From positions 38,465 to 102,464 of the forward strand of contig JAWKSR010000001.1 of the NCBI GenBank assembly GCA_041389005.1: a DNA stretch of 64,000 bases, in the 5' to 3' direction. Positions within the stretch are counted from its first letter, which is position 1, and the number at the start of each line of letters is the position of its first letter. This DNA comes from Minisyncoccota bacterium. GTDB taxonomy: Bacteria > Patescibacteriota > Minisyncoccia > Phycocordibacterales > UBA918. Of this stretch, positions 15,482 to 37,927 are shown piece by piece. Under the pieces are notes generated by a model. It had not been told where the DNA came from. It worked only from the letters and a program-made list of their open reading frames with translations, and made no database searches. A program made the position numbers and the translations under genes.

Positions 15482-15717
15482 CTTGGAATGATACTGAAAC
15501 CAGCGGAACTATTTACTATCAAATTGAATACAACAATAACGGAACGTGGGAACTCATTCCCGACAGTGATCTTGCGGGCAATAGTGTCGGAGCGACCGTT
15601 TCTCCAGTAAGTCTCATAAACCTTAATACCAACACGTACGATGAGATTCGATTAATTGCAACCGCGAGCGGCACCACGTTATCAATTGAAGATTGGACGC
15701 TCACGTGGGGGCAGCGT

Positions 15718-22485: not shown

Positions 22486-22669
22486 AGCGTTGTATCACTT
22501 CCATGATGATCCAGCGGTGCTTATCACTGATGAAACTGGGCGCGGACGGAATCTCTTACCAGCCGTGGGTACTGCTGCGACAACCACTGGTCTGATTGGA
22601 ACGGCGCTTGATACTACCGCCAGCAATGTCATGCTGCAAAGTAGTAGTTGGACCTGGCCAGCTGGGTAA
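22388..22669 (+). CDS. giant protein fragment 9: start of LamG-like domain (copy 2 of the 448-bp repeat)
   Basis: YEALYHFHDDPAVLITDETGRGRNLLPAVG... matches 18892-19070 nucleotide for nucleotide. Ends at a TAA created by a 1-nt deletion. Confidence 0.7.
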   Translation: MTQHSIYTMEMVAPRLTLIVMEYGTQAVWNAYEALYHFHDDPAVLITDETGRGRNLLPAVGTAATTTGLIGTALDTTASNVMLQSSSWTWPAG

Positions 22670-22939
22670 ATTGGATTTCATCTGGTCTGTATTTCCAATC
22701 CGCCATTGATAATGGAGCCTTGTGGCAGTTCGGTGATGGTAGCGGAAGCAATAATGGTACGTACTTGTCATTTATGCCGTGGTATAGCAATGGTACAAGA
22801 GGGTATCACTATTTTGGTGTTACTTCTGGCGGCGATTATGCTTTCACTCGCGATAATAGTATATGGCATCACTTCACTACTATTGGTCGCGCGGCAAGTG
22901 GTGAAAGTAATCAAATTTACGAAGACAATATCTTGCGCG
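22493..22939 (+). repeat. copy 2 of the 448-bp direct repeat (1-nt deletion + 1 substitution)
   Basis: GGGTAAATTGGATT here versus GGGTATAATTTGATT in copy 1; otherwise identical as read. Confidence 0.9.
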
Positions 22940-23466
22940 ACAGTGTGACGCAATTAGGTTCATCAAGAAAATCCAACCAACACCGGACTCAAGATTGGAC
23001 GCTACCCGAACTGGTACCTATATGGATATTGAAGTGGATGAATTGCGTTTCTCTTCTACTCCAACTGATGCGGCGAGCTGCTGAATTTACAAACTTAACC
23101 GATCAAGCGAACTTCATCAGTACCAGTACAACGCCAACTGAGCGATTCAACGTGGCAGTGGTTGGTGCACCAACTACGTATTGGCGATTCTCCCAGGGTA
23201 ATGACACCCTCTATGGTGAATCGTTTGACAGCGATGATGGTGACCCAGGATCAGTACAATGGGATGATAGTAGCTTCAGCATTACTATCTCAGGTGTGGT
23301 GTATGCAGATGATGGAGTAACGCCGATGAGCGCACCAGTATGTAATGGCTCTACTGATGTGGTAAAGATCGCTTTAGACAATGTCGTTTCTTATGTCACT
23401 CCTTGTGATCCGCGCGATGGTACCTATGAAGTACCGGCGTTGCCTATACCGGTGAACCTAAAATAA
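22648..23466 (+). CDS. giant protein fragment 10: rest of LamG-like domain + start of a repeated module
   Basis: SSGLYFQSAIDNGALWQFGDGSGSNNGTY..WHHFTTIGRA. About 22960-23090 is read out of frame; the expected NPTNTGLKIGRY..DIEVDELRFSS lies in another frame. Then TYWRFSQGND..VQWDDSSF, parallel to 26880-27000. Confidence 0.7.
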   Translation: MDLASWVNWISSGLYFQSAIDNGALWQFGDGSGSNNGTYLSFMPWYSNGTRGYHYFGVTSGGDYAFTRDNSIWHHFTTIGRAASGESNQIYEDNILRDSVTQLGSSRKSNQHRTQDWTLPELVPIWILKWMNCVSLLLQLMRRAAEFTNLTDQANFISTSTTPTERFNVAVVGAPTTYWRFSQGNDTLYGESFDSDDGDPGSVQWDDSSFSITISGVVYADDGVTPMSAPVCNGSTDVVKIALDNVVSYVTPCDPRDGTYEVPALPIPVNLK

Positions 23467-24666
23467 CAACCTACATTGATAGTAATGCGTCTGAAACGCA
23501 AGTTAATGTCAGTCTATATGATCAGACAACGGGGACGGGTACAGTTTCCGGGAGCACTATCACTGTATCTCGTCCAAATGTAGTTGATGGTTCAGTACTG
23601 GTTGCCATAATCGGTAAGGACGATGATCCGGCCATTTCAGGAGCGGCAGGGTGGACAGAGATAGATTCCCTTGGAAACACAACTGGAGATGATCTTTATA
23701 CAACCGCTTGGTACAAAGTGGTTGCCGATGCCAGTACTGAACCGGCCAGCTATGATTTCGGGGGCGACAATGGTGAGGGGTATAGCTATTGGGTAGGGTC
23801 ACTTCTTAACGTTGACACCAGTACGCCAGTTGACGTTGCTTCTAGTTGGACGAAGTACCAAAATGACCAAAACCCTACTGCTGCTGAAGGACGACTGTCA
23901 CCAATGGTGCATTGGTCTTAGCAAGTTGGTATACCTTCAGGGACGGAGACCTGACCCTGCCGTTCTCTGACTGGACAAATGTTGCACCGAATATCACTGG
24001 TCCGGAAGGCAATGGATTGTCAGTAAGTACTAAGTTGCAGGCAACAGCGGGTGCTACAGGTGACGCAATAGCCTTAACCTTGAAATAAACTACGAATCCC
24101 ATGCCGCCCAATTTGCTATTCGACCAGCTAGCTCACCGACCGCTACCAGTTCGGTCACTGCTGTTGTAGTGACGCAAACACCGCTGGGTAGCAGCGGAGC
24201 TGCATATGAAACCATTACCCAAAGAGATCAAGCGGTTGGTGACGGTACGGTAGGTGCCGGAGCTGATATTGCAGTCACCCGTCCAGTAGTTGAAAACAGT
24301 GACACACTGGTGGCTATTATTGGAAAGGAAGATACCTATGATATAACCCCACCATCAGGATGGGTAAAGATTGACGATTATAGCTCCGTAACCGGTTCTG
24401 TTATGCACAGTAGTATCTGGTATAAAGTTGTTACAAATGCGGGTAGCGAACCAGCCAGTTACAACTTCACCAGCAACGACACAAGCGTTGAAGAGTATGC
24501 CTACTGGATAGGATCGTTCAGTGGCGTAGATACTAGTAGTCCGTTGATGTTACTACAACATGGAGCAATGTGCAGAACACTTCCTCACCAGTGCTCAGTA
24601 TCACTACCAATACTCCTGGTGCATATGTCTTGGCGGCGTGGAATATCATGTATGACAACGCAGTGA
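23463..24666 (+). CDS. giant protein fragment group 11: tandem pair of an unassigned ~190-aa domain (several frame breaks)
   Basis: Copy 1: ITVSRPNVVDGSVLVAIIGKDDDPAISGAAGWTEID..WYKVVADASTEPASYDF..VDTSTPVDV. Copy 2: IAVTRPVVENSDTLVAIIGKEDTYDITPPSGWVKID..WYKVVTNAGSEPASYNF..VDTSSP. Confidence 0.55.
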
Positions 24667-24767
24667 CCATGCCGGGTGGTAGCTGGCAAACACTCGCTGA
24701 GGATGTATAACAACAGCCGGGCTATTAACGTTGCCGGACAGCGGCCGCTGCCGGGGCTACAGGTCTA

Positions 24768-25412
24768 GTGACAGTCACCGATGCCAGTACCGATGACGTA
24801 AACGTTGGACAATTTGCCTTGCGTCCAGCACCGATTTCTGTTGCCAGCGGTGTGTATGATATGGACTTGTATCAGGACCGAGTAATTGTACGTCATGAAG
24901 ACGTGACCCCAATGGATATTGCGGGATTGGTGCACTTTGACAATACTGTTGATACCGACATTCCGTTTATAGCTGCTACCGGTACGCCATGGACACTCGA
25001 TGTGTTGTCAGGGAGCGGACTGATGGTATGGGATGCGATACGTTTGTGCCAAACGGGGAAGTTGATCTGCAAGGCACCGGCACTGATACAAGATGGCTCA
25101 CCGCTACTTGGTACTGGTGCTGTCTACACTGCCAGCACCTATCCGTTAACTATCGGCGGTTCTTTCTTTGCTCGTAGCGGTGCTACATACACACCAGCAA
25201 CCAGTCAAGTGACCTTCGCTGCCACGACAAGCGGTCAGTCAATTGGCGCCATTGGTGGTTCTACTATTACATTTAACAGTCTCGTATTTGACGGCGGAGG
25301 AGGGGAATGGAATATCCAAACTCCGATTGTGTCTCAGGCAGGCATTACTGTAGCCACTGGTACGGTTCGGGGTAGCATCAGTGACAATCGAAAATGGTTC
25401 ATTTGCTGGTAA
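24768..25412 (+). CDS. giant protein fragment 12
   Basis: MDLYQDRVIVRHEDVTPMDIAGLVHFDNTVDTDIPFIAATG parallels MDIYEDHVIVRHESGASQTIADMAVWDSSDGADIPFTAIDAG at ~27235. Confidence 0.65.
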   Translation: MTVTDASTDDVNVGQFALRPAPISVASGVYDMDLYQDRVIVRHEDVTPMDIAGLVHFDNTVDTDIPFIAATGTPWTLDVLSGSGLMVWDAIRLCQTGKLICKAPALIQDGSPLLGTGAVYTASTYPLTIGGSFFARSGATYTPATSQVTFAATTSGQSIGAIGGSTITFNSLVFDGGGGEWNIQTPIVSQAGITVATGTVRGSISDNRKWFICW

Positions 25413-26106
25413 TGGTTTGGTTGATATGACCGGTGGTACGGTTGTTATTGAACAGACAAATACCTTGGGTGGGGTGCAACCATGGTTGTTTAACAATCTA
25501 ACACTGGGTGACGGCAGTAGTGCGAGGATTACTACGCCAAGTGGCACTGCCACCACTACTGTCCGAGGAGTACTTACTATTGCCGCCGGACACTTCTTAG
25601 ATGCCGGCAGTTCACACTGGACGCTTTCCGGTACGGGTAATCCATTTATAGAGACCGGAACCTTCCTTGAAGACACAAGTTCGTTTACCTATAGTGGTAA
25701 TGGAGCAAACATTCGGCGCACCGCGTATTACAATCTAGCGGTTGATACCACAACTGGTACCGCATATGCCACCGCCCCAACAACTGGGTTGCAGGTTCTC
25801 AATAATCTTGCGGTTGGTAAAAATGGTACTTCAACACTTAACGTTAATACAAATGATCCGTTGTTAGCAGTGGGTGGTGACGTATATATTGGAAATCTCG
25901 GTACGCTATTGGCAAGTGATACCAATCTCATTGAGGTGTATGGTGGTTGGAATAATGACGGAGTCTTTACTGCCAACGGCAGCTTAGTTGAGTTCTATCA
26001 AGTATCAGGTAGCAGTACGATTGCGGCAGGTAACAGTAGTTTTGCGGATGTCTCATTCCTCGGCAATGCTGACTTTACTATTAGAACATGCTACGGCAAC
26101 CGGTAA
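25381..26106 (+). CDS. giant protein fragment 13: beta-helix-like repeat block
   Basis: Repeats of the type NLTLGDGSSARITTPSGTATTTVRGVLTIAAG, YNLAVDTTTGTAYATAPTTGLQVLNNLAVG, GGDVYIGNLGTLLAS. Confidence 0.65.
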   Translation: MTIENGSFAGNGLVDMTGGTVVIEQTNTLGGVQPWLFNNLTLGDGSSARITTPSGTATTTVRGVLTIAAGHFLDAGSSHWTLSGTGNPFIETGTFLEDTSSFTYSGNGANIRRTAYYNLAVDTTTGTAYATAPTTGLQVLNNLAVGKNGTSTLNVNTNDPLLAVGGDVYIGNLGTLLASDTNLIEVYGGWNNDGVFTANGSLVEFYQVSGSSTIAAGNSSFADVSFLGNADFTIRTCYGNR

Positions 26107-26516
26107 CGTTTTGCTTGATGGTGAGAATGACTTCACGCTTGCCAGTGGTTTGAGTCTGGCAGTGGGTGGCACGTTCACTAACCGTATGGGTGGCGCCCAG
26201 ACTACATGGAGTGACACAACCCTCTATCTTTTCAGCGGTACTGATTACACCGTCAGTAATAAATCAATCACTGACACCTACGGTACGTTGCTCGTTGGCG
26301 CTCAACACACAGCCACGCTTCTGGAATTCATCAGCAGCCACTACCACGGTACGTACCGGCGGCTCAGTCTACTCAATGGATCATGCTAATGTGACGGGAG
26401 ATCTCTATATCTTTGGTGATTATGTAAACAAACGTTATGACGATGCGTGGAGCTACGCCAATGATTTTGATGGTGCTGTGCTTGGCACAGCACGTGCTGC
26501 CCAACGTGTACATTGA
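25988..26516 (+). CDS. giant protein fragment group 14 (two overlapping ORFs)
   Basis: GGAQTTWSDTTLYLFSGTDYTV.. and FWNSSAATTTVRTGGSVYSMDHANVTGDLYIFGDYVNKRYDDAWSYANDFDGAVLG parallel 28480-28770. Confidence 0.6.
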
Positions 26517-26742
26517 GGACAATGGTTCGGTGTTATACCAAGGCGGTTCCTTGACTGTGCTGGGTAGCAGTACCGCTTCCACTACAGTTGTTTCTCAGAA
26601 CGGGGTACCTACGCACTCACCATTGGGGGTACTACTACCGCTTTGATGAATCATTGTGTTACGTGATACTGACATTAATGGACTGACATTTAGTGGCAGT
26701 CCGACCGTAACGACATCTCGTATGGTGACTTTGTAGTAGCGA

Positions 26743-27627
26743 TTGATGGCGGTTCAGCTATTACAGTCGGTGGCACAGCGATCAATGCCAATCAAGCTCA
26801 AAATTATATCAAACAACCGCTTCGCCACTACCACCGCTATCAGTGCCAGTAACGTTACTGCCACTGGCACCAGTGTCAGCTCATGGCGGTTTGTAAATGC
26901 GCCGGGTAATCTTTCCGGAGAAGCTAAGGATAATGATCCGGGTGGAGACCCAGGTTATATTGTGTGGGAAGACTCAGCTGCCATTATCAATATTTCCGGA
27001 AATGTATATCAAAACGATGCTGCCACCGCCTCTCTGGTTTGTAACGGGGTGACGAATAATATTTTCCTTATGGATGGTCTGACGTTTGCGAGCACGAGTT
27101 GTGCCGCAGTAACAGGTGCCTACACGTTCTCTGGAATCGCGTATGGAGCGGGAGACACAGTCACAGTGTATATAGATGGCGCGCTGGTGCAAGGAGCCAC
27201 GGTCTCAAAGGACCCAGTCTCATCAATTGGGAACATGGATATCTATGAGGATCATGTCATTGTGCGACATGAAAGTGGAGCATCGCAGACGATAGCAGAC
27301 ATGGCTGTGTGGGATAGTTCTGACGGCGCAGACATTCCATTTACCGCCATTGATGCTGGTACTGATGGTCTCATTGTCCCTGCTGATGTAAAACTATTGG
27401 TTTGGACCGATAAAACATTTGCACCTGGGGGTGATGTTACTGTGGCTGGCGGTGGTGGTGGTAGCGCCTTTGACGGAACCTTAGAGATACTAGATGACGC
27501 AACATTCACAGCCGTGGATGGTGAATCTCACAGTATTGGCGGTAGCTTACTAACAGGTAGTGGAGCAGTATTTAATGCGGCCTCAGTACTACCACCTTTA
27601 CTACTACCGGTGCGAGTCGCACCATAG
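26743..27627 (+). CDS. giant protein fragment 15
   Basis: SSWRFVNAPGNLSGEAKDNDPGGDPGYIVWEDSAAIINISGNVY..CNGVTNN..TGAYTFSGIAYGAGDTVTVYIDG repeats the 23160-23480 module. Confidence 0.7.
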   Translation: MMAVQLLQSVAQRSMPIKLKIISNNRFATTTAISASNVTATGTSVSSWRFVNAPGNLSGEAKDNDPGGDPGYIVWEDSAAIINISGNVYQNDAATASLVCNGVTNNIFLMDGLTFASTSCAAVTGAYTFSGIAYGAGDTVTVYIDGALVQGATVSKDPVSSIGNMDIYEDHVIVRHESGASQTIADMAVWDSSDGADIPFTAIDAGTDGLIVPADVKLLVWTDKTFAPGGDVTVAGGGGGSAFDGTLEILDDATFTAVDGESHSIGGSLLTGSGAVFNAASVLPPLLLPVRVAP

Positions 27628-27629
27628 AT

Positions 27630-28579
27630 ATCAATGCCGCCAACCTATACAACGTTTCATTCACTGGTAGCGGTAGCTGGACTATTACTGACGCGACATT
27701 TACCGCGCTTGGTGATGTGACTATTACAAATGGAACAGTAACACTACCAACCGGGACGGCAACATTTGGTGGTGACTTTATCAATAGTGGTGGGTCATTC
27801 ACTGGCGCGGACACAACCACTTTGTTCAATGGTACGGGAGCTGGTCAAGTGGTTACCTTTGGAGGTTCAGATCTTGCCACTACTACATTTGATGGAGTTG
27901 GCGGCAGTTGGACTATTACCGATACCGGCGCCACTACCACTGGGTCATTCACTGTTAGTAATGGAGCAGTCACTCTGCCACCGGGCGTGTTGGCAGTAGC
28001 GAATGACTTTGTTATTGAAGATACTATTTCACATAATGGCGGCACCATCAGACTTTATGACCCAAGTGCTGGGCACGCTACTAACCCTATCAGGTAATGA
28101 TCTTAACTCTGTCACGATAGCCGGAGCTGCAGACGCTGTTGTGACTGACACCAGTGCGGCATTGTTGGGAGATCTTACAATTGTCACTGGTTCCTTTACT
28201 GCTGCGAGTGGTACGCTTTCCGTTGGCGGTTCGTTTGATGCTACTGGCGGATTATTTAATCACAGTTCGGAACTATACTCTTTAATTCGGCAGACACTGG
28301 TGAAGTGGTGAATGCTGGTAACAATGATTTCTATAACGTTGTATTTAATAACGCAGGCGGTGGTTGGACACTTACCAGCGCCACGAGCACTCAAAATTTC
28401 ACTCTCACTGCCGCCAGTAGCTTTACCCTTAATACCGGTGAGGTCTTGTCAGTTGAAGGGGTGTTCATGAACGCTGTGGGGGTGCAAACACTACCTGGAG
28501 CGGGACGGCGCTTAAATTACTCTCCGGTACAGATTATTCAGTAAACACAAAGGCAACTGGTGGTGATGTATACGATACG
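27630..28579 (+). CDS. giant protein fragment group 16: beta-helix-like repeat block (ORFs 27717-28097, 28003-28311, 28305-28544)
   Basis: Repeated units: NLYNVSFTGSGSWTITDATFTALGDVTITNGTVTLPTG.., TTTFDGVGGSWTITDTGATTTGSFTVSNGAVTLPPG.., FYNVVFNNAGGGWTLTSATSTQNFTLTAAS. Confidence 0.65.
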
Positions 28580-31573
28580 TTGGTCACCGCAAACGGTACT
28601 GACGTACGCTTCTGGAACAGCTCTTTTGCCTCTACTTCACTACCCGGCACTTCCTCAATATACTCACAAGACCATGCTGCGGTTGACGGTAGTCTCTATG
28701 TGTATGGTAACTTCATTAATGGAACCACAACTGAGTATTGGAATTATGCTAACGATTTTGATGGCTCCGTACTGACTGGCGGCTCTCGCCGTGCTGTCAC
28801 CGTCTCATTTGCCACTAGTACTGCGAGTACGCTCACCATGTCGGGCGGTGTCTTGCAATTGCTCGGTGATAGCACTGCCACCACCACCGTACAAAGTGTT
28901 GGCAATGGAACCTATGTTATGACGGTAACAGGCGGTGTCTTTAACGCGGACGAATACGCTTTCCGTGATCTGGCGAGCGGCGGGTTAACGTTTACTGGCA
29001 CACCGACTATAACGTCACTCTCAAATGGTGATTTTGAACAGACAGCAGATAGCGTCACCTTGATTACGCTGGCTTCTACAACCTTAGATACCAACGCTTC
29101 ATTGATTATCGATGGCATGCGCTTTGCTAACGGAGGATTCGTCAGCGGCACTAATGTCGCACTTGATGCTACGACAACAAACAGTTGGAGTTTTACAAAC
29201 CATCGCGGCAATATCGCGGGTGAAGACTATGACGCTGACGGGACTGATGAGTGTAGCTCCCTGCGTTGGGAGGACAGTCAGTGTTTGCTAACTGAGCAGA
29301 CTCATTACCGCTGGCGTAACGATGATGGAGGGGAAGGAGCTCCAGATAGTAGTTGGTATGATACCAACTGGAGTGCCCGCCAACGCGTTCGAATTATCAA
29401 CGATGACGCTACTGCGTATGCGAGCACTGCCGTCAAAATGACGGTGGCATATGACGCAGATATGCAATCTGACTTTGAAGATTTACGCTTTACCGATAGC
29501 ACCGGCACAACAACTATTCCGTTCTGGGTAGAACGCTTCAGTACTGGTGTCTCAGCTCAGGTGTGGGTACAAACTCCACTGGTTGCTGAAGATGTAACTG
29601 AGGTGTTTATGTACTACGGAAATGTGACCGCTACGAGTACCAGTGATGTGAGCTTAGTGTTTGATGTGTATGACGACTTTGAGGATGGTGATGACATTGA
29701 ATATGCTGGCGATATCGGACTCTTTTCACAAGATGGTGACTTTGCTTACGGTGGAGGATATGGCGTTGACACCGAAGGTTTTGTATCCAATCGTGCCACT
29801 GACGGTATGTTCCGTACTGATCAAACTATCAGTCAAGGGCAGATTATTCGCTACCTACATTATGTCGATACGACAGCTGGAGCGGCAGACGAAGCGTGTG
29901 TACTCTTTGGTGTTCAATCACCAGGAACCGACAATAATAACTATGGTGTGTGTCTCGAGTTGTTCTTAACTGACCGCATGAGCCTCGTTAAAGATGCTGA
30001 AAGTACCGACTCTTACGGAGGGGTGAGCATACTCGCTTCTACAACAGTCTCATACACAACCGGCTGGTATGAAGTGGAAGTAGATTGGCGTACTGATAAT
30101 TCAATCTTTGTATCACTATTTGATGGCAGTGGTTCTCTAGTGGCTACCACCTCCGCCAGTGATGCTAGCTACACATCAGGTGGCTATGGCTTCACGTATT
30201 GGGGCTTTAATGGTGGTTGGGACTCCTTTACCGCTCGAAACCGCACTGACAGTACACCAGCAGTCTACTTCGGTGCAGAGCAGGGGGATGGCGGAGCTAC
30301 GTGGGCAGCTCCTCAAGACACTGCCATCGGTGGCTTTGTCTTTGGTGAGACTGCTCGTTTGCGTATTGCAATTGAAAATTCAGGTTTAGATATCGAAAAT
30401 CAACAATTCCAATTAGAATTTGCACCAAAGCTGACAGCACCTACCTGTCAGGCGGTCAGTGGTGGCAGCTTCAGTGCTGTCCCGACAGCAGCGGGTTGTG
30501 GTTCTTCCGCTGTCTGTATGACCGCTTCTACTACGGTGAGCAATGGGGATCCGACAACCGATCATTTGGCAGTGACTGGTGGGGACTTCGTAGCGGGTGA
30601 AATAATCGAGGGAGCTTCAAATCAAACTGGGTCACTCGACATAAATCAGAATCAGTACACTGAACTTGAATACGCGATCAATCTGACCGCCAATGCAACC
30701 AATGACGCTTATTGTTTCCGAGTCACTGATGGCGGTAGTGTTCTTGACTCTTACGCTCGGTTACCTGAATTGACTTTAGCCTTCGATCCAATTGTGAGTG
30801 GAGTAACACTGAACAATGGCGCTGACATAAACCTTACTCTTGGTACTACCACACGAGTGTATGCCACTGGTACCGTGACTGACTTTAACGGATACGCTGA
30901 TCTCTCAACTGCCACCGCAACTATCTATCGTAGTGGTGCCGGCGCTGCGTGTAGTGCGGACAATAATAATTGTTATATCAGTGCTGGTGCACCACAATGT
31001 ACGTTTACGGGTTGTGCTGGATCGAGCTGTACACTTTCGTGTTATGCAGACATTTACTACCATGCTGACCCGACTGATTCTGGCAGTGCGTTTGATGGGC
31101 AAGAGTGGTTAGCGTATGTCGAGGTTGAAGATATGAGTGGTGGGTATGATTTTGGTTCTGCTCTCGGTGTGGAGATGATGACGCTCCGAGCCCTTGAGGT
31201 AGATACGACCATCAACTACGGTACGCTCGATGTTAACCAAAACAGTGGCTCTACCAATGCTGATACCACGTTGTATAACCTAGGAAATGAAGCCATAGAC
31301 GTGCGTATCGCCGGAACTGATATGACAGATGGAGCGGCGTCTGTAATTGATGCCAGCGAACAAGTATTTGCCACGAGTACGTTTGACTATGAAACCTGCA
31401 CCAACTGTAGTTCACTGTCAGTGCTTGGTAGTGATCTAGAAGTTGACTTGACTAAACCGGCTACTACAAGCCCACCGGTAACCGATGAAGTGTATTGGGG
31501 AATTAATATTCCATTTGGCACAGCTTCAAAACCACACACCGGTAACAACACCTTTATGGCAATTGGAGATTAA
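28580..31573 (+). CDS. giant protein C-terminal fragment (997 aa): classical DUF2341-like segment, ConA-like domain, YCFR-type module, C-terminal domain shared with 36068-37927
   Basis: HYRWRNDDGGEG; NWSARQRVRIIND..FEDLRFTDSTGTTTIPFWVE..VWVQTPLVAEDVTEVFMYYGN; ARLRIAIENSG..FQLEFAP..ELEYAINLTANATNDAYCFRVTDGG. Cys-rich domain ends VYWGINIPFGTASKPHTGNNTFMAIGD. TAA stop, then a hairpin. Confidence 0.85.
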   Translation: MVTANGTDVRFWNSSFASTSLPGTSSIYSQDHAAVDGSLYVYGNFINGTTTEYWNYANDFDGSVLTGGSRRAVTVSFATSTASTLTMSGGVLQLLGDSTATTTVQSVGNGTYVMTVTGGVFNADEYAFRDLASGGLTFTGTPTITSLSNGDFEQTADSVTLITLASTTLDTNASLIIDGMRFANGGFVSGTNVALDATTTNSWSFTNHRGNIAGEDYDADGTDECSSLRWEDSQCLLTEQTHYRWRNDDGGEGAPDSSWYDTNWSARQRVRIINDDATAYASTAVKMTVAYDADMQSDFEDLRFTDSTGTTTIPFWVERFSTGVSAQVWVQTPLVAEDVTEVFMYYGNVTATSTSDVSLVFDVYDDFEDGDDIEYAGDIGLFSQDGDFAYGGGYGVDTEGFVSNRATDGMFRTDQTISQGQIIRYLHYVDTTAGAADEACVLFGVQSPGTDNNNYGVCLELFLTDRMSLVKDAESTDSYGGVSILASTTVSYTTGWYEVEVDWRTDNSIFVSLFDGSGSLVATTSASDASYTSGGYGFTYWGFNGGWDSFTARNRTDSTPAVYFGAEQGDGGATWAAPQDTAIGGFVFGETARLRIAIENSGLDIENQQFQLEFAPKLTAPTCQAVSGGSFSAVPTAAGCGSSAVCMTASTTVSNGDPTTDHLAVTGGDFVAGEIIEGASNQTGSLDINQNQYTELEYAINLTANATNDAYCFRVTDGGSVLDSYARLPELTLAFDPIVSGVTLNNGADINLTLGTTTRVYATGTVTDFNGYADLSTATATIYRSGAGAACSADNNNCYISAGAPQCTFTGCAGSSCTLSCYADIYYHADPTDSGSAFDGQEWLAYVEVEDMSGGYDFGSALGVEMMTLRALEVDTTINYGTLDVNQNSGSTNADTTLYNLGNEAIDVRIAGTDMTDGAASVIDASEQVFATSTFDYETCTNCSSLSVLGSDLEVDLTKPATTSPPVTDEVYWGINIPFGTASKPHTGNNTFMAIGD

Positions 31574-31833: not shown

Positions 31834-33327
31834 ATGTGTACCCGGTTTGTAGCAGCCGTTGTGGCGTTTTCTGTTGTGGGTTTGACCACGTTTCCAACAG
31901 TGGCTTTTGCTGATACTGACGCACCCGTCATTAGCGATGTCGAAGTGACTAAAGACAGCTCTGATACCATTACAGTTACTTGGACAACTGATGAGGAGGC
32001 TGATTCCCTCATTAACTATGGTCTCAAAGAAGATTATGGGATTGTGCGTGATCCGGTGACTGATAAGACGAGTCACTCGATCACACTTGAAAATCTTGAA
32101 GCGGGACGAACGTACTATTTTCGGGTTGTCTCTTCTGATGAAAGTGGGAACCAAGGTATCTCCGCTGACTACAAAGTGCAGCTAGATACCGCTCCAACTC
32201 AAGATGGTACGGGAGTTGGTCCGGGACAAACCAATAACCAGACGGAAAGTGAGACACAGACTGAAAGTCAAACCACTCAAGAGATTGTCGAAAAAATTCA
32301 GCAAATAACAAACCCGCAGCAGATTAAAGAGATCCAAAACGAACTTATCAAAGCAGTGGAAGGCATCACGGAGGACCTCACTATTGTTGGTCCACCAACC
32401 GTTATTCCAGAAACCATTACCGCTATTGTTAAGTGGACAACTGACCGACCAGCTAGTTCTGAGGTTCAGTTTTCTTCCGTTGATCAATACACACCTGGGC
32501 AATACGCTTTCTCACAACAGGGAACGGGAGCTGACGCAACTGAGCATGAAGTACAACTCATTGGTCTTGAGCCGTTTACTGAATATCATTTTAGAGTACG
32601 CTCTACCGATGAATACGGTATAACAGGCGAGAGTCGCGATTTCACCTTTACCACCAAAGCGTCGTTGCCAGAAATTCGTAATCTCCGCATTGTAAAGGTA
32701 GAAGAGAATGCAGCTACTCTTGCCTGGGATACCACCGTACCCGCCAAGGCAACTATTGAATATCAAGACCTCACCACCGGAGAGAAGAATTCCAAAGGAC
32801 GCCCAACCTTAGCATCTACTCACCAAATGCGAATAGCTGATCTTACGCTTGGTACTCGCTATGTTGCTTTTGTTATTGCTGAAAATGCCGGCGGTGACCG
32901 AGTCAAGAGCCAACCGATCACATTTATTACAGTGCGCGATACCTCGCCACCGATTATTTCTAATGTAACCAACGAATCAACATTGTTTCCTGGTAGTGAG
33001 TCACGAATCCAAACTATCGTAGAGTGGGCGACTGATGAAGCTGCTTTCTGTCGGATGTCATATCGGGAAGGAGTAGCCAGTGGTGTTGATCCAATCACCA
33101 TTGAACCAGAACAGATCAATTATACTGAGAAGCACGTAGAAGTGATTGTAGATTTTGCTCCGGCAACGGTGTATCAATTTTGGTTGAATTGTGAAGACGA
33201 GGCAGGGAATGGTGTCCAGTCAGAGAATTTTGTGCTTTTCACGCCGATTCAAGAAAAAAACATTATCGATCTTATCCTTGAGAACTTTGAAAGCACCTTC
33301 GGCTGGGTTAAGAATATTAGTGGGTAG
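31834..33327 (+). CDS. secreted protein with four FN3-like (purple-acid-phosphatase-N-like) repeats
   Basis: Intact 497-aa ORF; signal peptide ends in VAFA. Repeats such as PVISDVEVTKDSSDTITVTWTTDEEADSLINYG..HSITLENLEAGRTYYFRVVSSDESGN and TAIVKWTTDRPASSEVQF..HEVQLIGLEPFTEYHFRVRSTDEYG. Confidence 0.8.
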   Translation: MCTRFVAAVVAFSVVGLTTFPTVAFADTDAPVISDVEVTKDSSDTITVTWTTDEEADSLINYGLKEDYGIVRDPVTDKTSHSITLENLEAGRTYYFRVVSSDESGNQGISADYKVQLDTAPTQDGTGVGPGQTNNQTESETQTESQTTQEIVEKIQQITNPQQIKEIQNELIKAVEGITEDLTIVGPPTVIPETITAIVKWTTDRPASSEVQFSSVDQYTPGQYAFSQQGTGADATEHEVQLIGLEPFTEYHFRVRSTDEYGITGESRDFTFTTKASLPEIRNLRIVKVEENAATLAWDTTVPAKATIEYQDLTTGEKNSKGRPTLASTHQMRIADLTLGTRYVAFVIAENAGGDRVKSQPITFITVRDTSPPIISNVTNESTLFPGSESRIQTIVEWATDEAAFCRMSYREGVASGVDPITIEPEQINYTEKHVEVIVDFAPATVYQFWLNCEDEAGNGVQSENFVLFTPIQEKNIIDLILENFESTFGWVKNISG

Positions 33328-33329
33328 TT

Positions 33330-34637
33330 ATGGCAAAACCTCTTATCATCGCTCGAGATCTCGAGATCATATATAACAAAGGAAAGAGCAACGAGTTCAA
33401 GGCGCTGACTGGCGTTAATACTGATATCTATGAAGGGGAGTACATTATCCTCTTTGGAGCATCGGGGTCAGGTAAGTCTACGCTGATGTATTCCATCCAG
33501 GGTTCATTACCACCGGGGAATGGTACGTTATTGATTCGTGGTGATGATATTTACAGTTATCCCCCAGAAGAACGTGTCTACTTTCAGCGACACGTCATGG
33601 GAATCATCTTCCAGCAATTTAACTTAATCCCATCACTAACTGTTTTGGACAACGTAGCGCTCCCCATGATCTTTTGTGACGCTGATAAGAAGACCCGTGA
33701 TCGGCGCGCTCAGTCTTTGCTCGATCGCTTTGGTGTCGGTATGGTTTCTCACAAGATTCCGGCCATGCTTTCTGGTGGTCAGCAACAGCGCGTTTCAGTA
33801 GCGCGTTCAATGGTAAACGATCCAAAGATTCTGTTGGCTGATGAGCCAACTGGTAACCTCGACTCTGTCTCAACGCAACAAGTTATGGATAAGATAGATG
33901 AGATTAATACATTTGACCGGCGTACTATTATTATGGTGTCTCATAACGCTGCCCATCTTTCTTATGCTCATCGCGTGTACTATCTTAAAGACGGACGCAT
34001 TGTGCGCGAAGTTGTGAACCCGCAGCGTAAGCAGATTAAGCCGGTCAAAGAAGGGGAGACCATTGTGACAGAATTAGAGCAGTTGGCTCGTTTGTTCCCG
34101 TATGATTCGATTGAGACTCTGCGGGTAAAAAGCTTGACTAATTATCTGACCCAAGATTACACGTATGATCAGCTTATACGGCTCGAGCGGTCACTGCGCT
34201 TTTTGATTACCGGTAAGGTAGACAGGCGAGCCTTTATCCGTTCCTTAATCTTACCGTACGAAGAAGGGGGAGTTGGAGTCGACCAAAAGACCGCTAAAGA
34301 AATGGCCGCCCGATCTACACGGATTATCGACCAGGCGGATGATATCAGGCGGTATCGTGCTCGCCCAGAAAATGACAAGATGTTCTTCAACCAACACCAT
34401 TTTGCAGAACGGATGCAGGAGCATTTACTGAAGACTTTTCACATGAAGCTGAAGAAGGCACAAGATGAGAATCTGATTGAATTGATTGCCGATCGAGTGA
34501 CTGGTGTGGCGAGTGATGACGAATTTAATGAGCGACTTATGAAAGGTGTCACTGTCGGAGGTTTAGGTTTGGCAGAAAAGCAAGCTGACGAATTAACACG
34601 CTATTTTGAAAAACTTATGCCCAGGGTGTGGATGTAA
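33330..34637 (+). CDS. ABC transporter ATP-binding protein (MacB/LolD/FtsE-like) with ~200-aa C-terminal extension
   Basis: Walker A GASGSGKSTLM, Q-loop, signature LSGGQQQRVSVARS, Walker B ILLADEPTGNLD, H-loop VSHN. The ATG lies 2 nt after the upstream stop. Residues ~225-435 are an unassigned helical extension. Confidence 0.9.
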   Translation: MAKPLIIARDLEIIYNKGKSNEFKALTGVNTDIYEGEYIILFGASGSGKSTLMYSIQGSLPPGNGTLLIRGDDIYSYPPEERVYFQRHVMGIIFQQFNLIPSLTVLDNVALPMIFCDADKKTRDRRAQSLLDRFGVGMVSHKIPAMLSGGQQQRVSVARSMVNDPKILLADEPTGNLDSVSTQQVMDKIDEINTFDRRTIIMVSHNAAHLSYAHRVYYLKDGRIVREVVNPQRKQIKPVKEGETIVTELEQLARLFPYDSIETLRVKSLTNYLTQDYTYDQLIRLERSLRFLITGKVDRRAFIRSLILPYEEGGVGVDQKTAKEMAARSTRIIDQADDIRRYRARPENDKMFFNQHHFAERMQEHLLKTFHMKLKKAQDENLIELIADRVTGVASDDEFNERLMKGVTVGGLGLAEKQADELTRYFEKLMPRVWM

Positions 34638-34675: not shown

Positions 34676-35881
34676 ATGCGTACACAAGACCTAGGACAAC
34701 TATCGACTCGAGCATTTAAGACCAATCCAATGCGTACCTGGTTGACCATTCTTGGTATGGGTGTTGGAACTGGCGCGGTCGTGGTCTTGGTAGGTTTAGG
34801 TTTTGGTCTGCAACAGATAATCTTGGAGCAGATTGTCTTTGGAGACCTTGCTTTCTTTGGGTGTTACCGCCACTGGCGCCCAGAATTTAAAGCTTACCCC
34901 AGAAACAGTCGAGCGGTTTGAACAACATGAAAATGTTCTTGATGCGGCACCGTTGGCTCGCTTCCCGGCTTTAATCACCTTCAAGGGTCTGACTGGGAAT
35001 GTATTCATTCAGGGAGTCGAGCCGCCGTACATTCGCTACGCTGGTATTACGGCGACTGCCGGGAGGTCTTTACTGACGATGATGCGGGAGATGAGAACAC
35101 CGTTATGCTTTCACCAGCGGTTTTAAAACTCTTTGGTATTGAAGATACAGAATCATTTGTCGGGCAAAAAGTGAGTTTTCGTATTCTAGTGCCACTCGGA
35201 GATGGTAGTGAAGAGGTGAGTGAGGTGATTGTAGACAAAGAATACACTGTCCGGGGTATTACTAAAGAAGAGGGAGTCTTAAATGCACTGATTATGTTAC
35301 CCGAGTTGCGTAATCATGTTGGTATCACTGAGTTTGAGCGTATTCAAGTACGCGTTGATACCAATGAGTCGTTGCCAATTGTCGAGAATGATTTAATCGA
35401 GCAAGGGTATCGGGTCACCGCTCTTTCTAAGACGGTGGAACAAGCTTCTAAAATCTTCCAAGGTGTTCAGATCGTGTTAGCGACCTTCGGTGGCATCGCG
35501 CTCCTGGTGTCCGCCATTGGTATGTTCAACACGATGACCGTGACGTTGCTTGAGCGAACCAAAGAGATTGGTATTATGCGCACCATCGGAGCGTCGCCGT
35601 CTGATATTAAATACCTGTTTGTGTCTGAATCTATTATCGTAGGTTTTTTGGGCGGTCTTTCAGGGATTATTATGGGTGTAGTATTGGGAGTGAGTATCAA
35701 CATCTTGCTCAACGTGGTCGCCAGTCAGTTTGGTGGACAAGCCGTCAAATTATTCTCGTTCCCGCTCACATTTCTGTTTTTTATCGCGCTTTTCTCTGCG
35801 ATCGTAGGATATCTAACGGGTATTTTCCCAGCCCGCCGTGCGTCAGCACTGAATCCGCTTGATGCTATTCGGTACGAATGA
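34676..35881 (+). pseudogene. ABC transporter permease, FtsX/MacB type (two frame breaks)
   Basis: N-terminus RAFKTNPMRTWLTILGMGVGTGAVVVLVGLG (ORF 34676), periplasmic-domain part in ORF 34833, and C-terminus in ORF 35105 (LERTKEIGIMRTIGASPSDIKYLFVSESIIVGFLGGLSGIIMG..PARRASALNPLDAIRYE). The three ORFs overlap end to end. Confidence 0.85.
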
Positions 35882-36067: not shown

Positions 36068-37927
36068 ATGTACAACAACAACGAGCACCCGTCGTATATA
36101 CACACGGCCGGGAAAGTCACTGTGGTCACCACCCTCCTGGGGACTGCAGTATTTGCCTTGGTGTTTCTTTTGAACATTGGTCAGAAGGAATTTCAAACGG
36201 CAGAAGCACAAAGTCAGGCAACCACATCTGTTTTGGTATTGAATACACCACCACAGTGGACGCTTAATGCGTATGAAGTGACAGAGTCTTCAACCTCCAC
36301 ACCAACCAATTCCGGTGATGATGTGCAGTGGTCAGCGATTGCAACAGACTCCAATGCTGAACCATACTGGCTTTTGGTTTGTAGCAACAATGCCACTCCA
36401 ACTCCAGGAACCAGTACCTCTACTCCAACCTGTGGAACTGGTGCTACCCAGTGGGCAGTCTCAGCTACTACCACTAGCGGTGCGCTGGCGGTCGCAGCAA
36501 CTACTACCACTGAAGTAGCACCGTTTGCAGAAAAGCAAGATTGGTACGCCTGGATCTGTGACGCGATTGACTTAAACGCTCGTTGTAACAACACTCCAAC
36601 CAATGGTCTCTCCGCCACTAACTCATCACCTTTCCATGTAAACAGCCGACCAGTCTTCACCGCGTTCTATGATGACTCACCGGCGGTGCCAGGATCGGTT
36701 GTTACTTTTACCTCAACTTCGTCTGATTCCGATACAGTGGGTGGAGCAGATACACTGCAGCTCATTGTTTGTAACGAGGCAGACTACAACAGTGCTACCA
36801 ATGCCTGTGGAGCTGGCGGTACTTTAGCGACTTCAACCTTTGTTGTGAGTGACGCAACCGCTACCTATACCATAGTTATCCCTACTCAAGATCAGGACTA
36901 TACTGCCTATGGGTACGTTGTTGACGAACATGGTCATGAGGCATCTGGCGGTTCACAAGGAACTGACGCTACGTTGACGGTAGACAATATTGCACCAACA
37001 GTTGCCGCTGCATCAATTGTTATCAACGGTGGTTCTGACATGGTTCTTACCACTGAATCAGGAGAAACTACCGGCTTTACCCTTGATTTCGTTGCTACTG
37101 ATAATAACAGTTGTGAAAATGCCGCCACTACTGACGAGATTGTAGACTATACCGTGTCCCTCTATCGAAATGGCTCTGGTGTGAGTAGTACCACTTGTGA
37201 TGCAGAAGGTAGTGGTGCGTATGATCCCAACAACTGTTATCAAAGTGAAGTGGGAGCAGCCGTCTGGAATCTTTCTTGTACGGCTTCATCAACTAGCTGT
37301 ACAGGACCGACTGACACTACACAGTTATTCGAATGTACGTTCCCGTTGTGGTATGTAGCTGATCCAACTGATGGTGGTGCTACTAACACCGTACACTTTG
37401 CCCTAGACTGGTCAGCGGAAGTAAATGCTGTTGATGATGATAATGCCACTGGTACTGATTCAGAAGCTTCAACCGGACAAGAATTAAATAGTTTGCTTGC
37501 CTTTGCCCTCAACACGCTCCAGATTCCGTATGGAGAACTTGAACCGGGCAACGATACCGGCACGCTTTCAGCCACCACTTCGATTGCAGCAACTGGTAAC
37601 GTTGGTCTTGATGAAGAGTTGACTGGTGAGTCTATGTGTACAACCTACAGTGGTGTGACGCCATGTCCAACTTCAGCTACCTCTACCATCCCCGAAACTG
37701 AGCAAGAGTTTGCAACCTCAGAGTTGGCGTACGGGCTAGGGACGGCACTTTCTTCAAGTACGCAGCAAGAATTGGAGATCAATGTCTCTAAGACCACCAG
37801 TACTTCGACACCAGCAACCGGGCTCACCTATTGGGGTATTGCAGTACCGGCTACCATTAGTCTTGCCGGTCTCTATACCGGAGAAAACACTTTCTACGCT
37901 GTCGTGAGCGAACCGGGTGACTGGTAA
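36068..37927 (+). CDS. membrane-anchored/secreted surface protein sharing its C-terminal domain with the giant protein
   Basis: Intact 619-aa ORF with N-terminal TM VTVVTTLLGTAVFALVFLLNI; T/S-rich. The C-terminal ~300 aa (IAPTVAAASIVINGG .. LTYWGIAVPATISLAGLYTGENTFYAVVSEPGDW) align by eye with 30790-31573. Confidence 0.8.
   Translation: MYNNNEHPSYIHTAGKVTVVTTLLGTAVFALVFLLNIGQKEFQTAEAQSQATTSVLVLNTPPQWTLNAYEVTESSTSTPTNSGDDVQWSAIATDSNAEPYWLLVCSNNATPTPGTSTSTPTCGTGATQWAVSATTTSGALAVAATTTTEVAPFAEKQDWYAWICDAIDLNARCNNTPTNGLSATNSSPFHVNSRPVFTAFYDDSPAVPGSVVTFTSTSSDSDTVGGADTLQLIVCNEADYNSATNACGAGGTLATSTFVVSDATATYTIVIPTQDQDYTAYGYVVDEHGHEASGGSQGTDATLTVDNIAPTVAAASIVINGGSDMVLTTESGETTGFTLDFVATDNNSCENAATTDEIVDYTVSLYRNGSGVSSTTCDAEGSGAYDPNNCYQSEVGAAVWNLSCTASSTSCTGPTDTTQLFECTFPLWYVADPTDGGATNTVHFALDWSAEVNAVDDDNATGTDSEASTGQELNSLLAFALNTLQIPYGELEPGNDTGTLSATTSIAATGNVGLDEELTGESMCTTYSGVTPCPTSATSTIPETEQEFATSELAYGLGTALSSSTQQELEINVSKTTSTSTPATGLTYWGIAVPATISLAGLYTGENTFYAVVSEPGDW

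What the first reader, a model, noticed from the sequence alone, without database searches (positions are those of the whole stretch)
30790..31573. C-terminal Cys-rich domain of the giant protein is shared with the 619-aa protein 36068-37927
Giant protein tail: VTLNNGADINLTLGTTTRVYATGTVTDFNGYADL..CYISAGAPQCTFTGC..CYADIYYHADPTD..W.AYVEVED..LRALEVDTTINYGTLD..VYWGINIPFGTASKPHTGNNTFMAIGD. 36068 tail: IVINGGSDMVLTTESGETTGFTLDFVATDNNSCEN..CYQSEVGAAVWNLSCT..CTFPLWYVADPTD..W.AEVNAVDD..LLAFALNTLQIPYGELE..LTYWGIAVPATISLAGLYTGENTFYAVVSEP. Both tails keep the same order of motifs and the same terminal (L/V)(T)YWGI..P....G.(Y/H)TG.NTF.A(V/I) signature. That signature again resembles WxL-type motifs. A common C-terminal module on a 7,700-aa and a 619-aa protein suggests a shared anchoring or assembly signal.
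Basis: partly seen in the sequence, partly recalled or inferred. Interest (0 to 1): 0.55.

Follow-up and report, generated by a model that had tools for sequence, protein, structure and literature searches.

The report
Shared C-terminal module in surface-protein triad
A giant surface protein and a 619-residue protein of an ultra-small (Patescibacteria) bacterium end in the same unannotated two-domain module, and this pair always sits next to a membrane-anchored WxLIP-like protein, so the module is probably a cell-surface docking device, though it is not a true WxL domain.

Summary
The last ~265 residues of the giant gene (30782-31570) and the last ~310 of the 619-aa protein (36992-37924) are homologous: BLASTP E=1e-21, 31% identity, z=27 against shuffles.

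The module has no Pfam, NCBIfam or PDB sequence match. AlphaFold2 folds it with high confidence (pLDDT 94) as two tandem Ig-like beta-sandwiches with about 8 cysteines. It defines a family of about 2,400 clusters at 50% identity, almost always at the extreme C-terminus. Carriers are either 2,000-7,700-aa DUF2341 giants or ~550-650-aa proteins. All named carriers are Patescibacteria.

In 65 of 70 assessable loci two module genes co-occur. In 61 of those 65 a signal peptide/two-Ig/C-terminal-TM protein follows directly. That protein is related to the window's Pfam-positive WxLIP (DUF916) protein (hhalign 92%).

The arrangement mirrors Firmicute WxL clusters (large WxL, small WxL, WxLIP). The module itself fails the WxL tests: no PF13731 hit in 80 members, no dual WxL motif, wrong size.

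Best reading: a C-terminal docking module that tethers both proteins to the WxLIP-like anchor. This step is inferred, not shown.

The "7,700-aa protein" is, in this sequence, a gene broken by about 20 frame changes.

The parts
8254..31573 (+). Giant DUF2341/LamG-type surface-protein gene with an N-terminal signal peptide. In this sequence it is interrupted by about 20 frame changes; reconstructed it is about 7,770 codons.
   Evidence: The ORF list is fragmented, with 211 in-frame stops if read in one frame. It is collinear with the intact 7,440-aa P0131 and with the 5,436-aa giant of L001 across frame switches. PF10102 DUF2341 hits.
30782..31570 (+). Module copy 1 (giant-type subfamily): two tandem Ig-like beta-sandwich domains with 8 Cys, ending ...VYWGINIPFGTASKPHTGNNTFMAIGD*
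   Evidence: hmmsearch E=2.9e-102. AF2 pLDDT 94.2, pTM 0.85. BLASTP against copy 2 gives E=1e-21.
31834..33327 (+). Secreted protein with repeated fn3/PAP_N-like domains. It is conserved between the two module genes in the Kaiserbacteria-type locus.
   Evidence: Pfam fn3 E=2e-23. Present in 59 of 60 loci. Absent in L002, L003 and L085.
33330..34637 (+). MacB/LolD/FtsE-type ABC ATPase with a C-terminal extension of about 200 aa.
   Evidence: NCBIfam matches. Present in 58 of 60 loci.
34676..35881 (+). MacB_PCD/FtsX permease, split over three frames in this sequence.
   Evidence: ORFs 34676-34921, 34833-35126 and 35105-35881. NCBIfam LolCE/MacB. Intact 402-aa homologues carry PF12704+PF02687.
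36068..37927 (+). 619-aa protein: N-terminal hydrophobic helix (signal peptide or signal anchor, residues 22-36), two N-terminal Ig-like domains (63-185 and 189-305), then the module.
   Evidence: AF2 pLDDT 87.6 with four beta-sandwich domains. Foldseek finds only generic Ig/fn3/MG strings.
36992..37924 (+). Module copy 2 (small-protein subfamily), ending ...LTYWGIAVPATISLAGLYTGENTFYAVVSEPGDW*
   Evidence: hmmsearch E=1.4e-96. BLASTP against copy 1.
38036..38987 (+). WxLIP-like gene: signal peptide, two Ig-like domains, C-terminal TM helix and a basic tail. Split over at least 3 frames here. It lies directly downstream of module gene 2.
   Evidence: tblastn with the intact L005 homologue gives three collinear pieces in three frames. 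Family HMM E=1.9e-69 and 2.1e-28. Family profile against the PF06030-positive ORF 2649: hhalign 92.4%, E=5e-7.
39096..40079 (+). DUF4215/Big_6/dockerin surface protein, conserved downstream of the triad.
   Evidence: Pfam. Present in 51 of 60 loci.
2649..3672 (+). Second WxLIP-type gene of the window: PF06030 WxLIP_PGBD, a second Ig-like domain, and a TM helix after a frameshift. Used here as the Pfam-anchored reference for the WxLIP-like family.
   Evidence: PF06030 E=4.9e-8, 33.5 bits against a cut-off of 27.3. ORFs 2649-3338 and 3274-3672.

Best explanation
The shared tail is an autonomous extracellular C-terminal module of about 265-310 aa. It consists of two tandem, disulfide-containing Ig-like beta-sandwich domains and is not covered by Pfam or NCBIfam.

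Each locus encodes exactly two paralogous carriers. One is a giant DUF2341/LamG adhesin-like protein and the other is a small (~300-650 aa) secreted protein. A protein with a signal peptide, two Ig-like domains and a C-terminal transmembrane helix (WxLIP-like) follows immediately.

I propose that the module is the docking end of both proteins. Both are exported by Sec via N-terminal signal peptides. The C-terminal module emerges last, next to the membrane, and binds non-covalently to the membrane-anchored WxLIP-like protein, and possibly to the sister module and/or peptidoglycan. The giant protein would then be held by its C-terminus and project outward. This is the same logic as Firmicute WxL clusters (large WxL, small WxL, WxLIP) but uses a different, non-WxL domain.

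Shown: the homology of the tails, the fold class, the strict C-terminal position, the family's size and taxonomic range, and the conserved triad. Inferred: the physical interaction and the anchoring role.
For: - Homology: E=1e-21, z=27.
- Fold: AF2 pLDDT 94.2, two beta-sandwiches. The same unit forms domains 3-4 of the 619-aa model, pLDDT 87.6.
- Strictly C-terminal: 0-4 residues after the HMM end in all 151 hits; about 147 of the 150 top representatives; 0-8 residues in 80 aligned members.
- Family size: 2,399 representatives at E<=1e-3, with bimodal carrier lengths (~550-650 aa and 2,000-7,696 aa).
- Taxonomy: 103 GTDB species genomes match; nearly all of the 80 listed are titled as Patescibacteria lineages (a few only as 'bacterium'), plus one 'Acidimicrobiales' MAG.
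- Triad: 65 of 70 assessable loci have two module genes. In 61 of those 65 a WxLIP-like gene follows at a median gap of 122 nt. The exceptions are loci cut off by the flank limit.
- Distant loci L002, L003 and L085 lack the fn3/ABC/FtsX genes but keep two modules plus the WxLIP-like gene.
- The WxLIP-like family is homologous to the window's PF06030-positive protein: hhalign 92.4%, E=5e-7; hmmsearch E=2e-7.
- In the consensus sequences, the WxLIP-like protein is the only triad member with a clear membrane anchor. Distant small carriers (P0114, P0116) have classical cleavable signal peptides.
- After regressing out ABC/FtsX distances, residual distance correlations are higher within the triad (0.34-0.47) than with fn3 (0.07-0.26). 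This is a weak hint only.
- Published model of WxL clusters: one WxLIP plus two WxL proteins, with the C-terminal domain as anchor (PMC10599100, PMC9772566).
Against: - No interaction was tested. Co-folding was not possible with the tools available.
- The module shows no detectable sequence relation to WxL or to the ORF 1363 family that sits next to the other WxLIP gene.
- The WxLIP-like family itself does not reach Pfam thresholds directly. One of 25 members hits WxLIP_HBD at E=0.036, so its WxLIP status rests on one profile-to-sequence link.
- Foldseek finds only generic Ig-like matches, so the fold gives no functional clue.
- The 619-aa protein may itself be membrane-anchored through its N-terminal helix, which would favour the heterodimer rival.
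- The mirror-tree signal was not tested for significance, and the dockerin-protein control is only slightly lower (0.27-0.34).
Confidence: 0.45

Rival explanations
1. Module-module heterodimer. The two paralogous modules pair with each other. The small protein, held in the membrane by its uncleaved N-terminal helix, is the anchor or adaptor for the giant protein. The WxLIP-like protein is accessory.
For: There are always exactly two paralogous modules per locus, from two ancient subfamilies: about 30% identity between subfamilies against 45-68% within. The window's 619-aa protein has a 15-residue predicted helix followed by a long linker and no clear short c-region. Residual distance correlation between giant tail and 619 tail is 0.34.
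Against: Distant small carriers have classical cleavable signal peptides (VYA|DT in P0114, IFA|ET in P0116), so N-terminal anchoring is not general. The strict adjacency of the WxLIP-like gene then goes unexplained.
Confidence: 0.2
2. Ordinary structural Ig-like stalk domains. The two genes share a terminal domain pair through an old duplication or domain shuffling, and the pair has no specific docking role.
For: Foldseek hits are only generic Ig/fn3/MG strings. Both proteins are built of many beta-sandwich domains. The strand preceding the module is also similar (AYCFRVTD / AYGYVVDE).
Against: Neutral shuffling does not predict the strict C-terminal position in about 2,400 clusters. It also does not predict the high conservation of 38 shared positions including 5 Cys, the exactly-two-per-locus rule, or the obligatory WxLIP-like neighbour across divergent lineages.
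Confidence: 0.15
3. Recognition or processing signal for the neighbouring MacB-type ABC transporter and fn3 protein. For example, mechanotransmission-driven release, maturation or assembly of the two carriers.
For: fn3, ABC ATPase and FtsX/MacB_PCD permease lie between the two module genes in 58-59 of 60 Kaiserbacteria-type loci.
Against: Loci L002, L003 and L085 keep two modules plus the WxLIP-like gene with no ABC/FtsX/fn3 nearby. Both carriers have Sec signal peptides. Residual correlation with fn3 is lowest (0.07 and 0.23).
Confidence: 0.1
4. The module, or its second domain, is a hyper-divergent true homologue of the WxL domain, and the whole triad is an orthologue of Firmicute WxL/Csc clusters.
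For: Same cluster logic with a WxLIP-related partner (PMC10599100). C-terminal position. One invariant W-G-[I/L] strand pairing with the last strand.
Against: No PF13731 hit in 80 members at E<=10. No dual WxL motif at 68/106-aa spacing. Twice the size, with two domains. No significant profile match to the ORF 1363 family.
Confidence: 0.1

Closest known systems
WxL / Csc surface-protein clusters of Firmicutes (small WxL + large WxL + WxLIP = DUF916-DUF3324-TM; PMC9772566, PMC10599100, PMC1534035)
   Same: One large multi-domain and one small secreted protein share a strictly C-terminal domain. A membrane-anchored two-Ig-domain protein related to WxLIP is encoded alongside (hhalign 92% to a PF06030-positive protein). 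The host is a monoderm with peptidoglycan. The proposed role is non-covalent surface anchoring.
   Different: The shared domain is not WxL: there is no PF13731 hit, no dual WxL motif, and it is 260-310 aa in two beta-sandwiches rather than 160-190 aa. The large partner is a 2,000-7,700-aa DUF2341 giant. The phylum is Patescibacteria. In most loci a MacB-type ABC transporter and an fn3 protein are inserted between the two carriers. No LPxTG partner was seen.
Cohesin-dockerin anchoring (also present in this window: cohesin+TM 6611-8095; dockerins 4193-6076 and 39096-40079)
   Same: A C-terminal module shared by different secreted proteins docks onto a membrane-anchored partner encoded nearby.
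   Different: Dockerin is a ~60-aa Ca-binding helical module. The module here is a ~265-aa double beta-sandwich with no Pfam dockerin or cohesin signal.
Giant DUF2341/FhaB-containing proteins of Patescibacteria (PMC11809585)
   Same: The large carrier is a protein of this kind: more than 4,000 aa, with DUF2341 repeats and an inferred role in adhesion or host interaction.
   Different: In the passages of that paper retrieved by term search, no shared C-terminal module, small paralogous carrier or WxLIP-like neighbour is mentioned.
T9SS C-terminal domain (CTD) of Bacteroidota
   Same: A C-terminal Ig-like beta-sandwich serves as a sorting or attachment tag.
   Different: The CTD is a single 70-100-aa domain present on dozens of cargos per genome in diderms and is cleaved by PorU. 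Here there is a double domain on two proteins per locus in a monoderm-like phylum. No Pfam CTD hit.

Membership tests
WxL domain (Pfam PF13731) | Significant match to the WxL family HMM | tested here: not met
   No Pfam or NCBIfam hit for either protein at E<=0.1. None of 80 family members hits PF13731 at E<=10. None of the 120 listed homologues carries a precomputed Pfam domain.
WxL domain (Pfam PF13731) | Two conserved Trp-x-Leu motifs about 68 (large) or about 106 (small) residues apart on adjacent strands (PMC9772566) | tested here: not met
   There is only one invariant W-G-[I/L] (W262). The other invariant Trp is W-x-A (W132), 130 residues upstream. The last strand is F-x-A, about 20 residues after W262.
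WxL domain (Pfam PF13731) | Single domain of 160-190 aa | tested here: not met
   The module is 260-310 aa. AF2 shows two beta-sandwich domains.
WxL domain (Pfam PF13731) | Always the C-terminal domain of the protein | tested here: met
   0-4 residues follow the HMM end in all 151 hits. About 147 of the 150 top representatives carry it at the C-terminus.
WxL domain (Pfam PF13731) | Occurs in a cluster with a second (small or large) carrier and a WxLIP (DUF916-DUF3324-TM) protein | tested here: met
   65 of 70 loci have two carriers, and in 61 of those 65 a WxLIP-like gene follows. The link to PF06030 is hhalign 92.4%, E=5e-7. This holds by analogy only, because the carriers are not WxL.
WxL domain (Pfam PF13731) | 3D similarity to predicted WxL domain models; peptidoglycan binding | not testable with these tools
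   No WxL chain appeared among the PDB Foldseek hits. No AlphaFold DB library was available. No wet-lab work was possible.
WxLIP (PF06030 + PF11797 + TM) - for the downstream gene 38036-38987 | Direct Pfam match to the PGBD and HBD domains | tested here: inconclusive
   Of 25 members, only 1 hits WxLIP_HBD (E=0.036) and none hits PGBD. The family profile does match the window's PF06030-positive ORF 2649 at E=5e-7 and 2e-7.
WxLIP (PF06030 + PF11797 + TM) - for the downstream gene 38036-38987 | Architecture: signal peptide, two Ig-like domains, C-terminal TM helix, 300-380 aa | tested here: met
   Family consensus is 305-336 aa, with an N-terminal hydrophobic leader, two beta-rich halves, and a hydrophobic stretch followed by RR at the C-terminus. 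No structure was predicted.
Ig-like beta-sandwich tandem | All-beta two-domain fold with Foldseek matches to Ig-like domains | tested here: met
   pLDDT 94.2. Hits include Fab light chains, BcpA pilin, the AgI/II C-domain and FXIII at E of about 1e-4 to 1e-3, with low global TM (~0.2) because two domains are compared at once.
Phage fibre-type / trimeric tail-fibre C-terminal domain | Structural match to fibre tip or knob domains | tested here: not met
   BFVD and PDB hits are generic Ig/fn3 repeats of virion proteins. No fibre knob or intramolecular chaperone domain was found.
DUF2341 giant surface proteins (large carrier) | PF10102 repeats in a protein of several thousand aa | tested here: met
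   PF10102 at E=1e-16, 5e-12 and 2.7e-5 in three ORF pieces. Collinear with intact 5,436-aa and 7,440-aa proteins.

The most novel reading that the evidence does not exclude
The double-Ig module, its small paralogous carrier and the WxLIP-like membrane protein form a phylum-wide Patescibacterial surface-anchoring system. It would be evolutionarily linked through the WxLIP component to the WxL/Csc clusters of Firmicutes. It would be the device that holds the 5,000-7,700-aa host-attachment proteins of these episymbionts on the cell. The module would then be the Patescibacterial functional counterpart of the WxL domain, either its replacement or an unrecognisably diverged form.
Probability: 0.3. 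Interest if true: 0.65.

Novelty: new variant of a known kind. Interest (0 to 1): 0.5.

Why it matters
Patescibacteria (CPR) are ultra-small, mostly episymbiotic bacteria. How they hold and deploy their giant surface proteins is unknown. In the passages of the one paper I consulted on these DUF2341 giants (PMC11809585), adhesion is only speculated on.

A strictly C-terminal, phylum-wide module paired with a membrane-anchored WxLIP-like protein gives a concrete hypothesis for anchoring that can be tested with recombinant proteins. It defines an unannotated domain family of about 2,400 clusters at 50% identity that could be added to Pfam. It also extends the WxLIP-based 'two carriers plus one anchor' design from Firmicutes to a distant phylum.

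Tried and rejected
- Alternative genetic code as the cause of the fragmented giant ORF. Rejected: all three stop codons occur in frame, and the reading frame changes at the junctions.
- Homopolymer slippage at the frameshift sites. The sites inspected are not homopolymers, so the cause stays open: unpolished long-read assembly or pseudogenisation.
- tblastn of the tails against the window at E<=0.01 missed the paralogue, although BLASTP, the HMM and the shuffle test all find it. I treated this as a heuristic miss.
- PDB sequence search with the tail found nothing.
- Foldseek on both models (PDB twice, BFVD once) gave only generic Ig-like strings.
- Relation of the module to the ORF 1363 family, the neighbour of the other WxLIP gene. 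hhalign E=0.21 for the single sequence and E=0.04 for profile-profile, so not significant.
- Direct Pfam assignment of the downstream gene. No significant hit.
- The search for related loci with the full 80-sequence alignment failed because no stretch was conserved enough. It was repeated with the giant-type subfamily only, so the genome survey is biased towards Kaiserbacteria-type loci.
- Exact-sequence look-up of the 619-aa protein: not on record.
- Mirror-tree partial correlations gave only a weak hint and were not tested for significance.
- I could not obtain a bona fide WxL sequence or model, so no direct profile-profile or structural comparison with WxL was made.
Full report

Yes. ORF 28580-31573 (997 aa) and ORF 36068-37927 (619 aa) align over their C-terminal ~290-330 residues with 87 bits, E=1e-21 and 31% identity. 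A Smith-Waterman score of 287 compares with 50 +/- 8.8 for 500 shuffles, with a maximum of 84, so z=27. An HMM built from homologues places the shared unit at 30782-31570 and 36992-37924.

Thirty-eight positions are conserved in both subfamilies, and each module has a median of 8 Cys.

**2. The 'giant protein'.**

Under table 11 the region 8254-31573 is not one ORF. Read in one frame it has 211 stops of all three kinds, and the ORF list shows about 20 pieces in alternating frames.

It is nevertheless one gene by homology. The intact 7,440-aa P0131 aligns collinearly from 8257 to 31570, with query coordinates running on seamlessly across each frame switch. The C-terminal 1,672 aa of the intact 5,436-aa giant of locus L001 do the same. 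Intact relatives of 7,456-7,696 aa exist. In 52 of 55 other genomes the ORF upstream of the module is uninterrupted for more than 3,333 codons.

The same window also has frame-split FtsX (34676-35881) and two frame-split WxLIP-like genes. The junctions I inspected are not homopolymers. The sequence therefore carries many single-base indels. These are either residual long-read errors or decay, and I cannot tell which.

A 100%-identical protein (P0264) places the window in an NCBI MAG of 'Candidatus Paceibacterota bacterium', locus tag R3B69_00275, on a contig of 166,940 nt.

**3. What the module is.**

- There is no Pfam, NCBIfam or PDB sequence match.
- AlphaFold2 with an 80-sequence alignment gives pLDDT 94.2 and pTM 0.85. 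The model is all-beta, with two sandwich domains at about residues 27-150 and 160-286 of the query.
- The full 619-aa protein models at pLDDT 87.6. It has an N-terminal helix (22-36) and four beta-sandwich domains, the last two being the module.
- Foldseek finds only generic tandem Ig-like, fn3 or MG strings: Fab light chains, BcpA pilin, the AgI/II C-domain, complement MG domains, SiiE and phage Ig-like decorations.
- No fibre knob and no specific family were found.

**4. Distribution.**

A profile search of 1.84 billion representatives finds 2,399 proteins at E<=1e-3 and 1,159 at E<=1e-30. Carrier lengths are bimodal, at ~550-650 aa and 2,000-7,696 aa. The module sits at the extreme C-terminus in about 147 of the 150 best hits.

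In GTDB species genomes, 103 relatives of the giant-type tail were found. Nearly all of the 80 listed carry Patescibacteria/Paceibacteria-type titles: Kaiser-, Nomura- and Sungbacteria, Paceibacterota, and 'Saccharibacteria' by automatic labelling. A few are titled only 'bacterium', and one is a probably mis-binned 'Acidimicrobiales' MAG.

**5. Context: the decisive result.**

In the Kaiserbacteria-type loci the gene order is:

1. giant protein with module
2. fn3 protein
3. MacB-type ABC ATPase
4. FtsX/MacB_PCD permease
5. small protein with module
6. a ~312-aa protein
7. DUF4215/Big_6/dockerin protein

With HMMs for the module and for the ~312-aa family, 65 of 70 assessable loci have two module genes. 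The other five have insertions that push the second gene beyond the fetched flank. In 61 of the 65, the ~312-aa gene follows the second module gene at a median gap of 122 nt. The other four loci end within 400 nt.

More distant loci keep this triad but lack fn3/ABC/FtsX:

- L002: 550 aa + 552 aa
- L003: 311 aa + 301 aa, which is little more than signal peptide plus module
- L085: a 1,905-aa DUF2341 protein + 546 aa

The core is therefore two module carriers plus the ~312-aa protein.

**6. The ~312-aa protein is WxLIP-like.**

Its consensus is a signal peptide, two beta-rich halves, a C-terminal hydrophobic helix and an RR tail. Direct Pfam scans are not significant; one of 25 members hits WxLIP_HBD at E=0.036.

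The family profile does match window ORF 2649-3335 with hhalign probability 92.4% and E=5e-7 over 143 columns, and by hmmsearch at E=2e-7. That ORF is itself a bona fide PF06030 (WxLIP_PGBD/DUF916) hit, with E=4.9e-8 and 33.5 bits against a cut-off of 27.3.

According to PMC10599100, a WxL cluster is defined by one WxLIP plus two WxL proteins, typically one small and one large. [quoted passage not shown] AlphaFold2 there predicts that a DUF916 hairpin inserts into WxL. PMC9772566 concludes that the C-terminal WxL domain anchors the large protein to the wall.

**7. Is the module a WxL domain?**

By every testable criterion except position and context, no.

- There is no PF13731 hit in 80 members at E<=10.
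- There is only one invariant W-G-[I/L], about 20 residues before the terminal F-x-A, instead of two WxL motifs 68 or 106 residues apart.
- It is twice the size, with two domains.
- It is also not detectably related to the ORF 1363 family. That is a very conserved 377-aa secreted protein next to the other WxLIP gene, and its C-terminus (HWGL ... ~70 aa ... TLTYIATPTF) looks more WxL-like. The profile-profile result is E=0.04, probability 1.3%.

I could not obtain a WxL model or sequence for a direct structural comparison.

**8. Mechanism proposed.**

Both carriers have N-terminal Sec-type leaders. Of the three conserved proteins, only the WxLIP-like one has an unambiguous membrane anchor.

I therefore propose that the module is a docking unit that binds the WxLIP-like protein, and perhaps the sister module or peptidoglycan. 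This would tether the giant protein by its C-terminus so that the DUF2341/LamG array projects outward. The small carrier would be a second subunit of the same platform, analogous to small WxL.

A crude mirror-tree analysis on 52 genomes regressed out ABC/FtsX distances. Residual correlations are 0.39 (giant tail with WxLIP-like), 0.47 (small tail with WxLIP-like) and 0.34 (tail with tail). They are 0.07-0.26 with fn3 and 0.27-0.34 with the dockerin protein. This fits the proposal but is weak and was not tested for significance.

The interaction itself is inferred. Confidence in the mechanism is about 0.45. Confidence in the homology, fold class, C-terminal position and conserved triad is above 0.9.

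**9. Rivals.**

- Module-module heterodimer, with the small protein as an N-terminally anchored adaptor (0.2).
- Plain structural stalk domains (0.15).
- A signal for the MacB-type transporter (0.1). This is weakened by loci that lack the transporter.
- A hyper-divergent true WxL domain (0.1).

**10. Novelty.**

Giant DUF2341 proteins of Patescibacteria are known (PMC11809585). WxL/WxLIP clusters are known in Firmicutes. None of the ten top-ranked papers from a full-text search combining WxL with Patescibacteria/CPR terms contains 'WxL', and the module is in neither Pfam nor NCBIfam.

I rate it a new variant of a known kind: a WxLIP-based 'two carriers plus one anchor' surface system that uses a different carrier domain, in a different phylum, attached to giant adhesin-like proteins.

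Noticed in passing
window 8254-31573; 34676-35881; 2649-3672; 38036-38987: Many single-base frame changes: about 20 in the giant gene, 2 in FtsX, and at least 1 and at least 2 in the two WxLIP-like genes. Neighbouring fn3, ABC ATPase, 619-aa and dockerin genes are intact. The junctions inspected are not homopolymers. The cause is either an unpolished long-read assembly or gene decay.
   Followed up: partly
L001:9322-11236; L004:9534-11335: The homologue of the 619-aa protein is itself split across frames in two independent assemblies. L001 uses 3 frames, with breaks near residues ~105-114 and ~180-186. L004 uses 2 frames, with a break between residues ~108 and 142. The similar position could be coincidence, assembly error in a Thr/Ala-rich stretch, or phase variation.
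   Followed up: no
window 1363-2496 and 2649-3672: A second WxLIP-type pair. ORF 1363 is a very conserved 377-aa secreted protein (60-70% identity across more than 100 Paceibacteria, no Pfam domain) with a WxL-like C-terminus: HWGL, then ~70 aa, then TLTYIATPTF. It lies directly upstream of a PF06030 (DUF916) + TM protein. It may be the genuine WxL counterpart in this phylum.
   Followed up: partly
window 6611-8095; 4193-6076; 39096-40079: A cohesin protein with a C-terminal TM helix and two dockerin-ending surface proteins lie in the same region. This suggests a second, cellulosome-style anchoring system alongside the module/WxLIP-like one. Cohesin and dockerin genes are also conserved downstream in L001, L004 and L086.
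   Followed up: no
window 51350-51757 (ORF 51461-53092): A 543-aa ORF shares the 'AYCFRVTD' beta-sandwich domain that immediately precedes the module in the giant protein (tblastn E=0.004 and 7e-7). It has no Pfam domain.
   Followed up: no
window 33330-34637: The MacB/LolD-type ABC ATPase carries a C-terminal extension of about 200 aa with no family match. The extension is conserved in length in homologues (436-464 aa).
   Followed up: no
window 1363-1500 and 4193-4400: ORF 1363 and the dockerin protein ORF 4193 share an N-terminal motif after the signal peptide: SDT[LI]SDS...HT[IL].F, then a further stretch ending in F..G[FY]. This suggests a common N-terminal domain among several secreted proteins of this locus.
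   Followed up: no
L040 (JBLIMJ010000001.1): A contig with the complete Patescibacteria-type locus is labelled 'Acidimicrobiales bacterium'. This is probably a binning or labelling error rather than horizontal transfer.
   Followed up: no
window 1-64000: Nearly all long ORFs are on the + strand and GC skew is positive throughout, with cumulative skew rising monotonically. This is consistent with one replichore showing strong co-orientation of genes.
   Followed up: no
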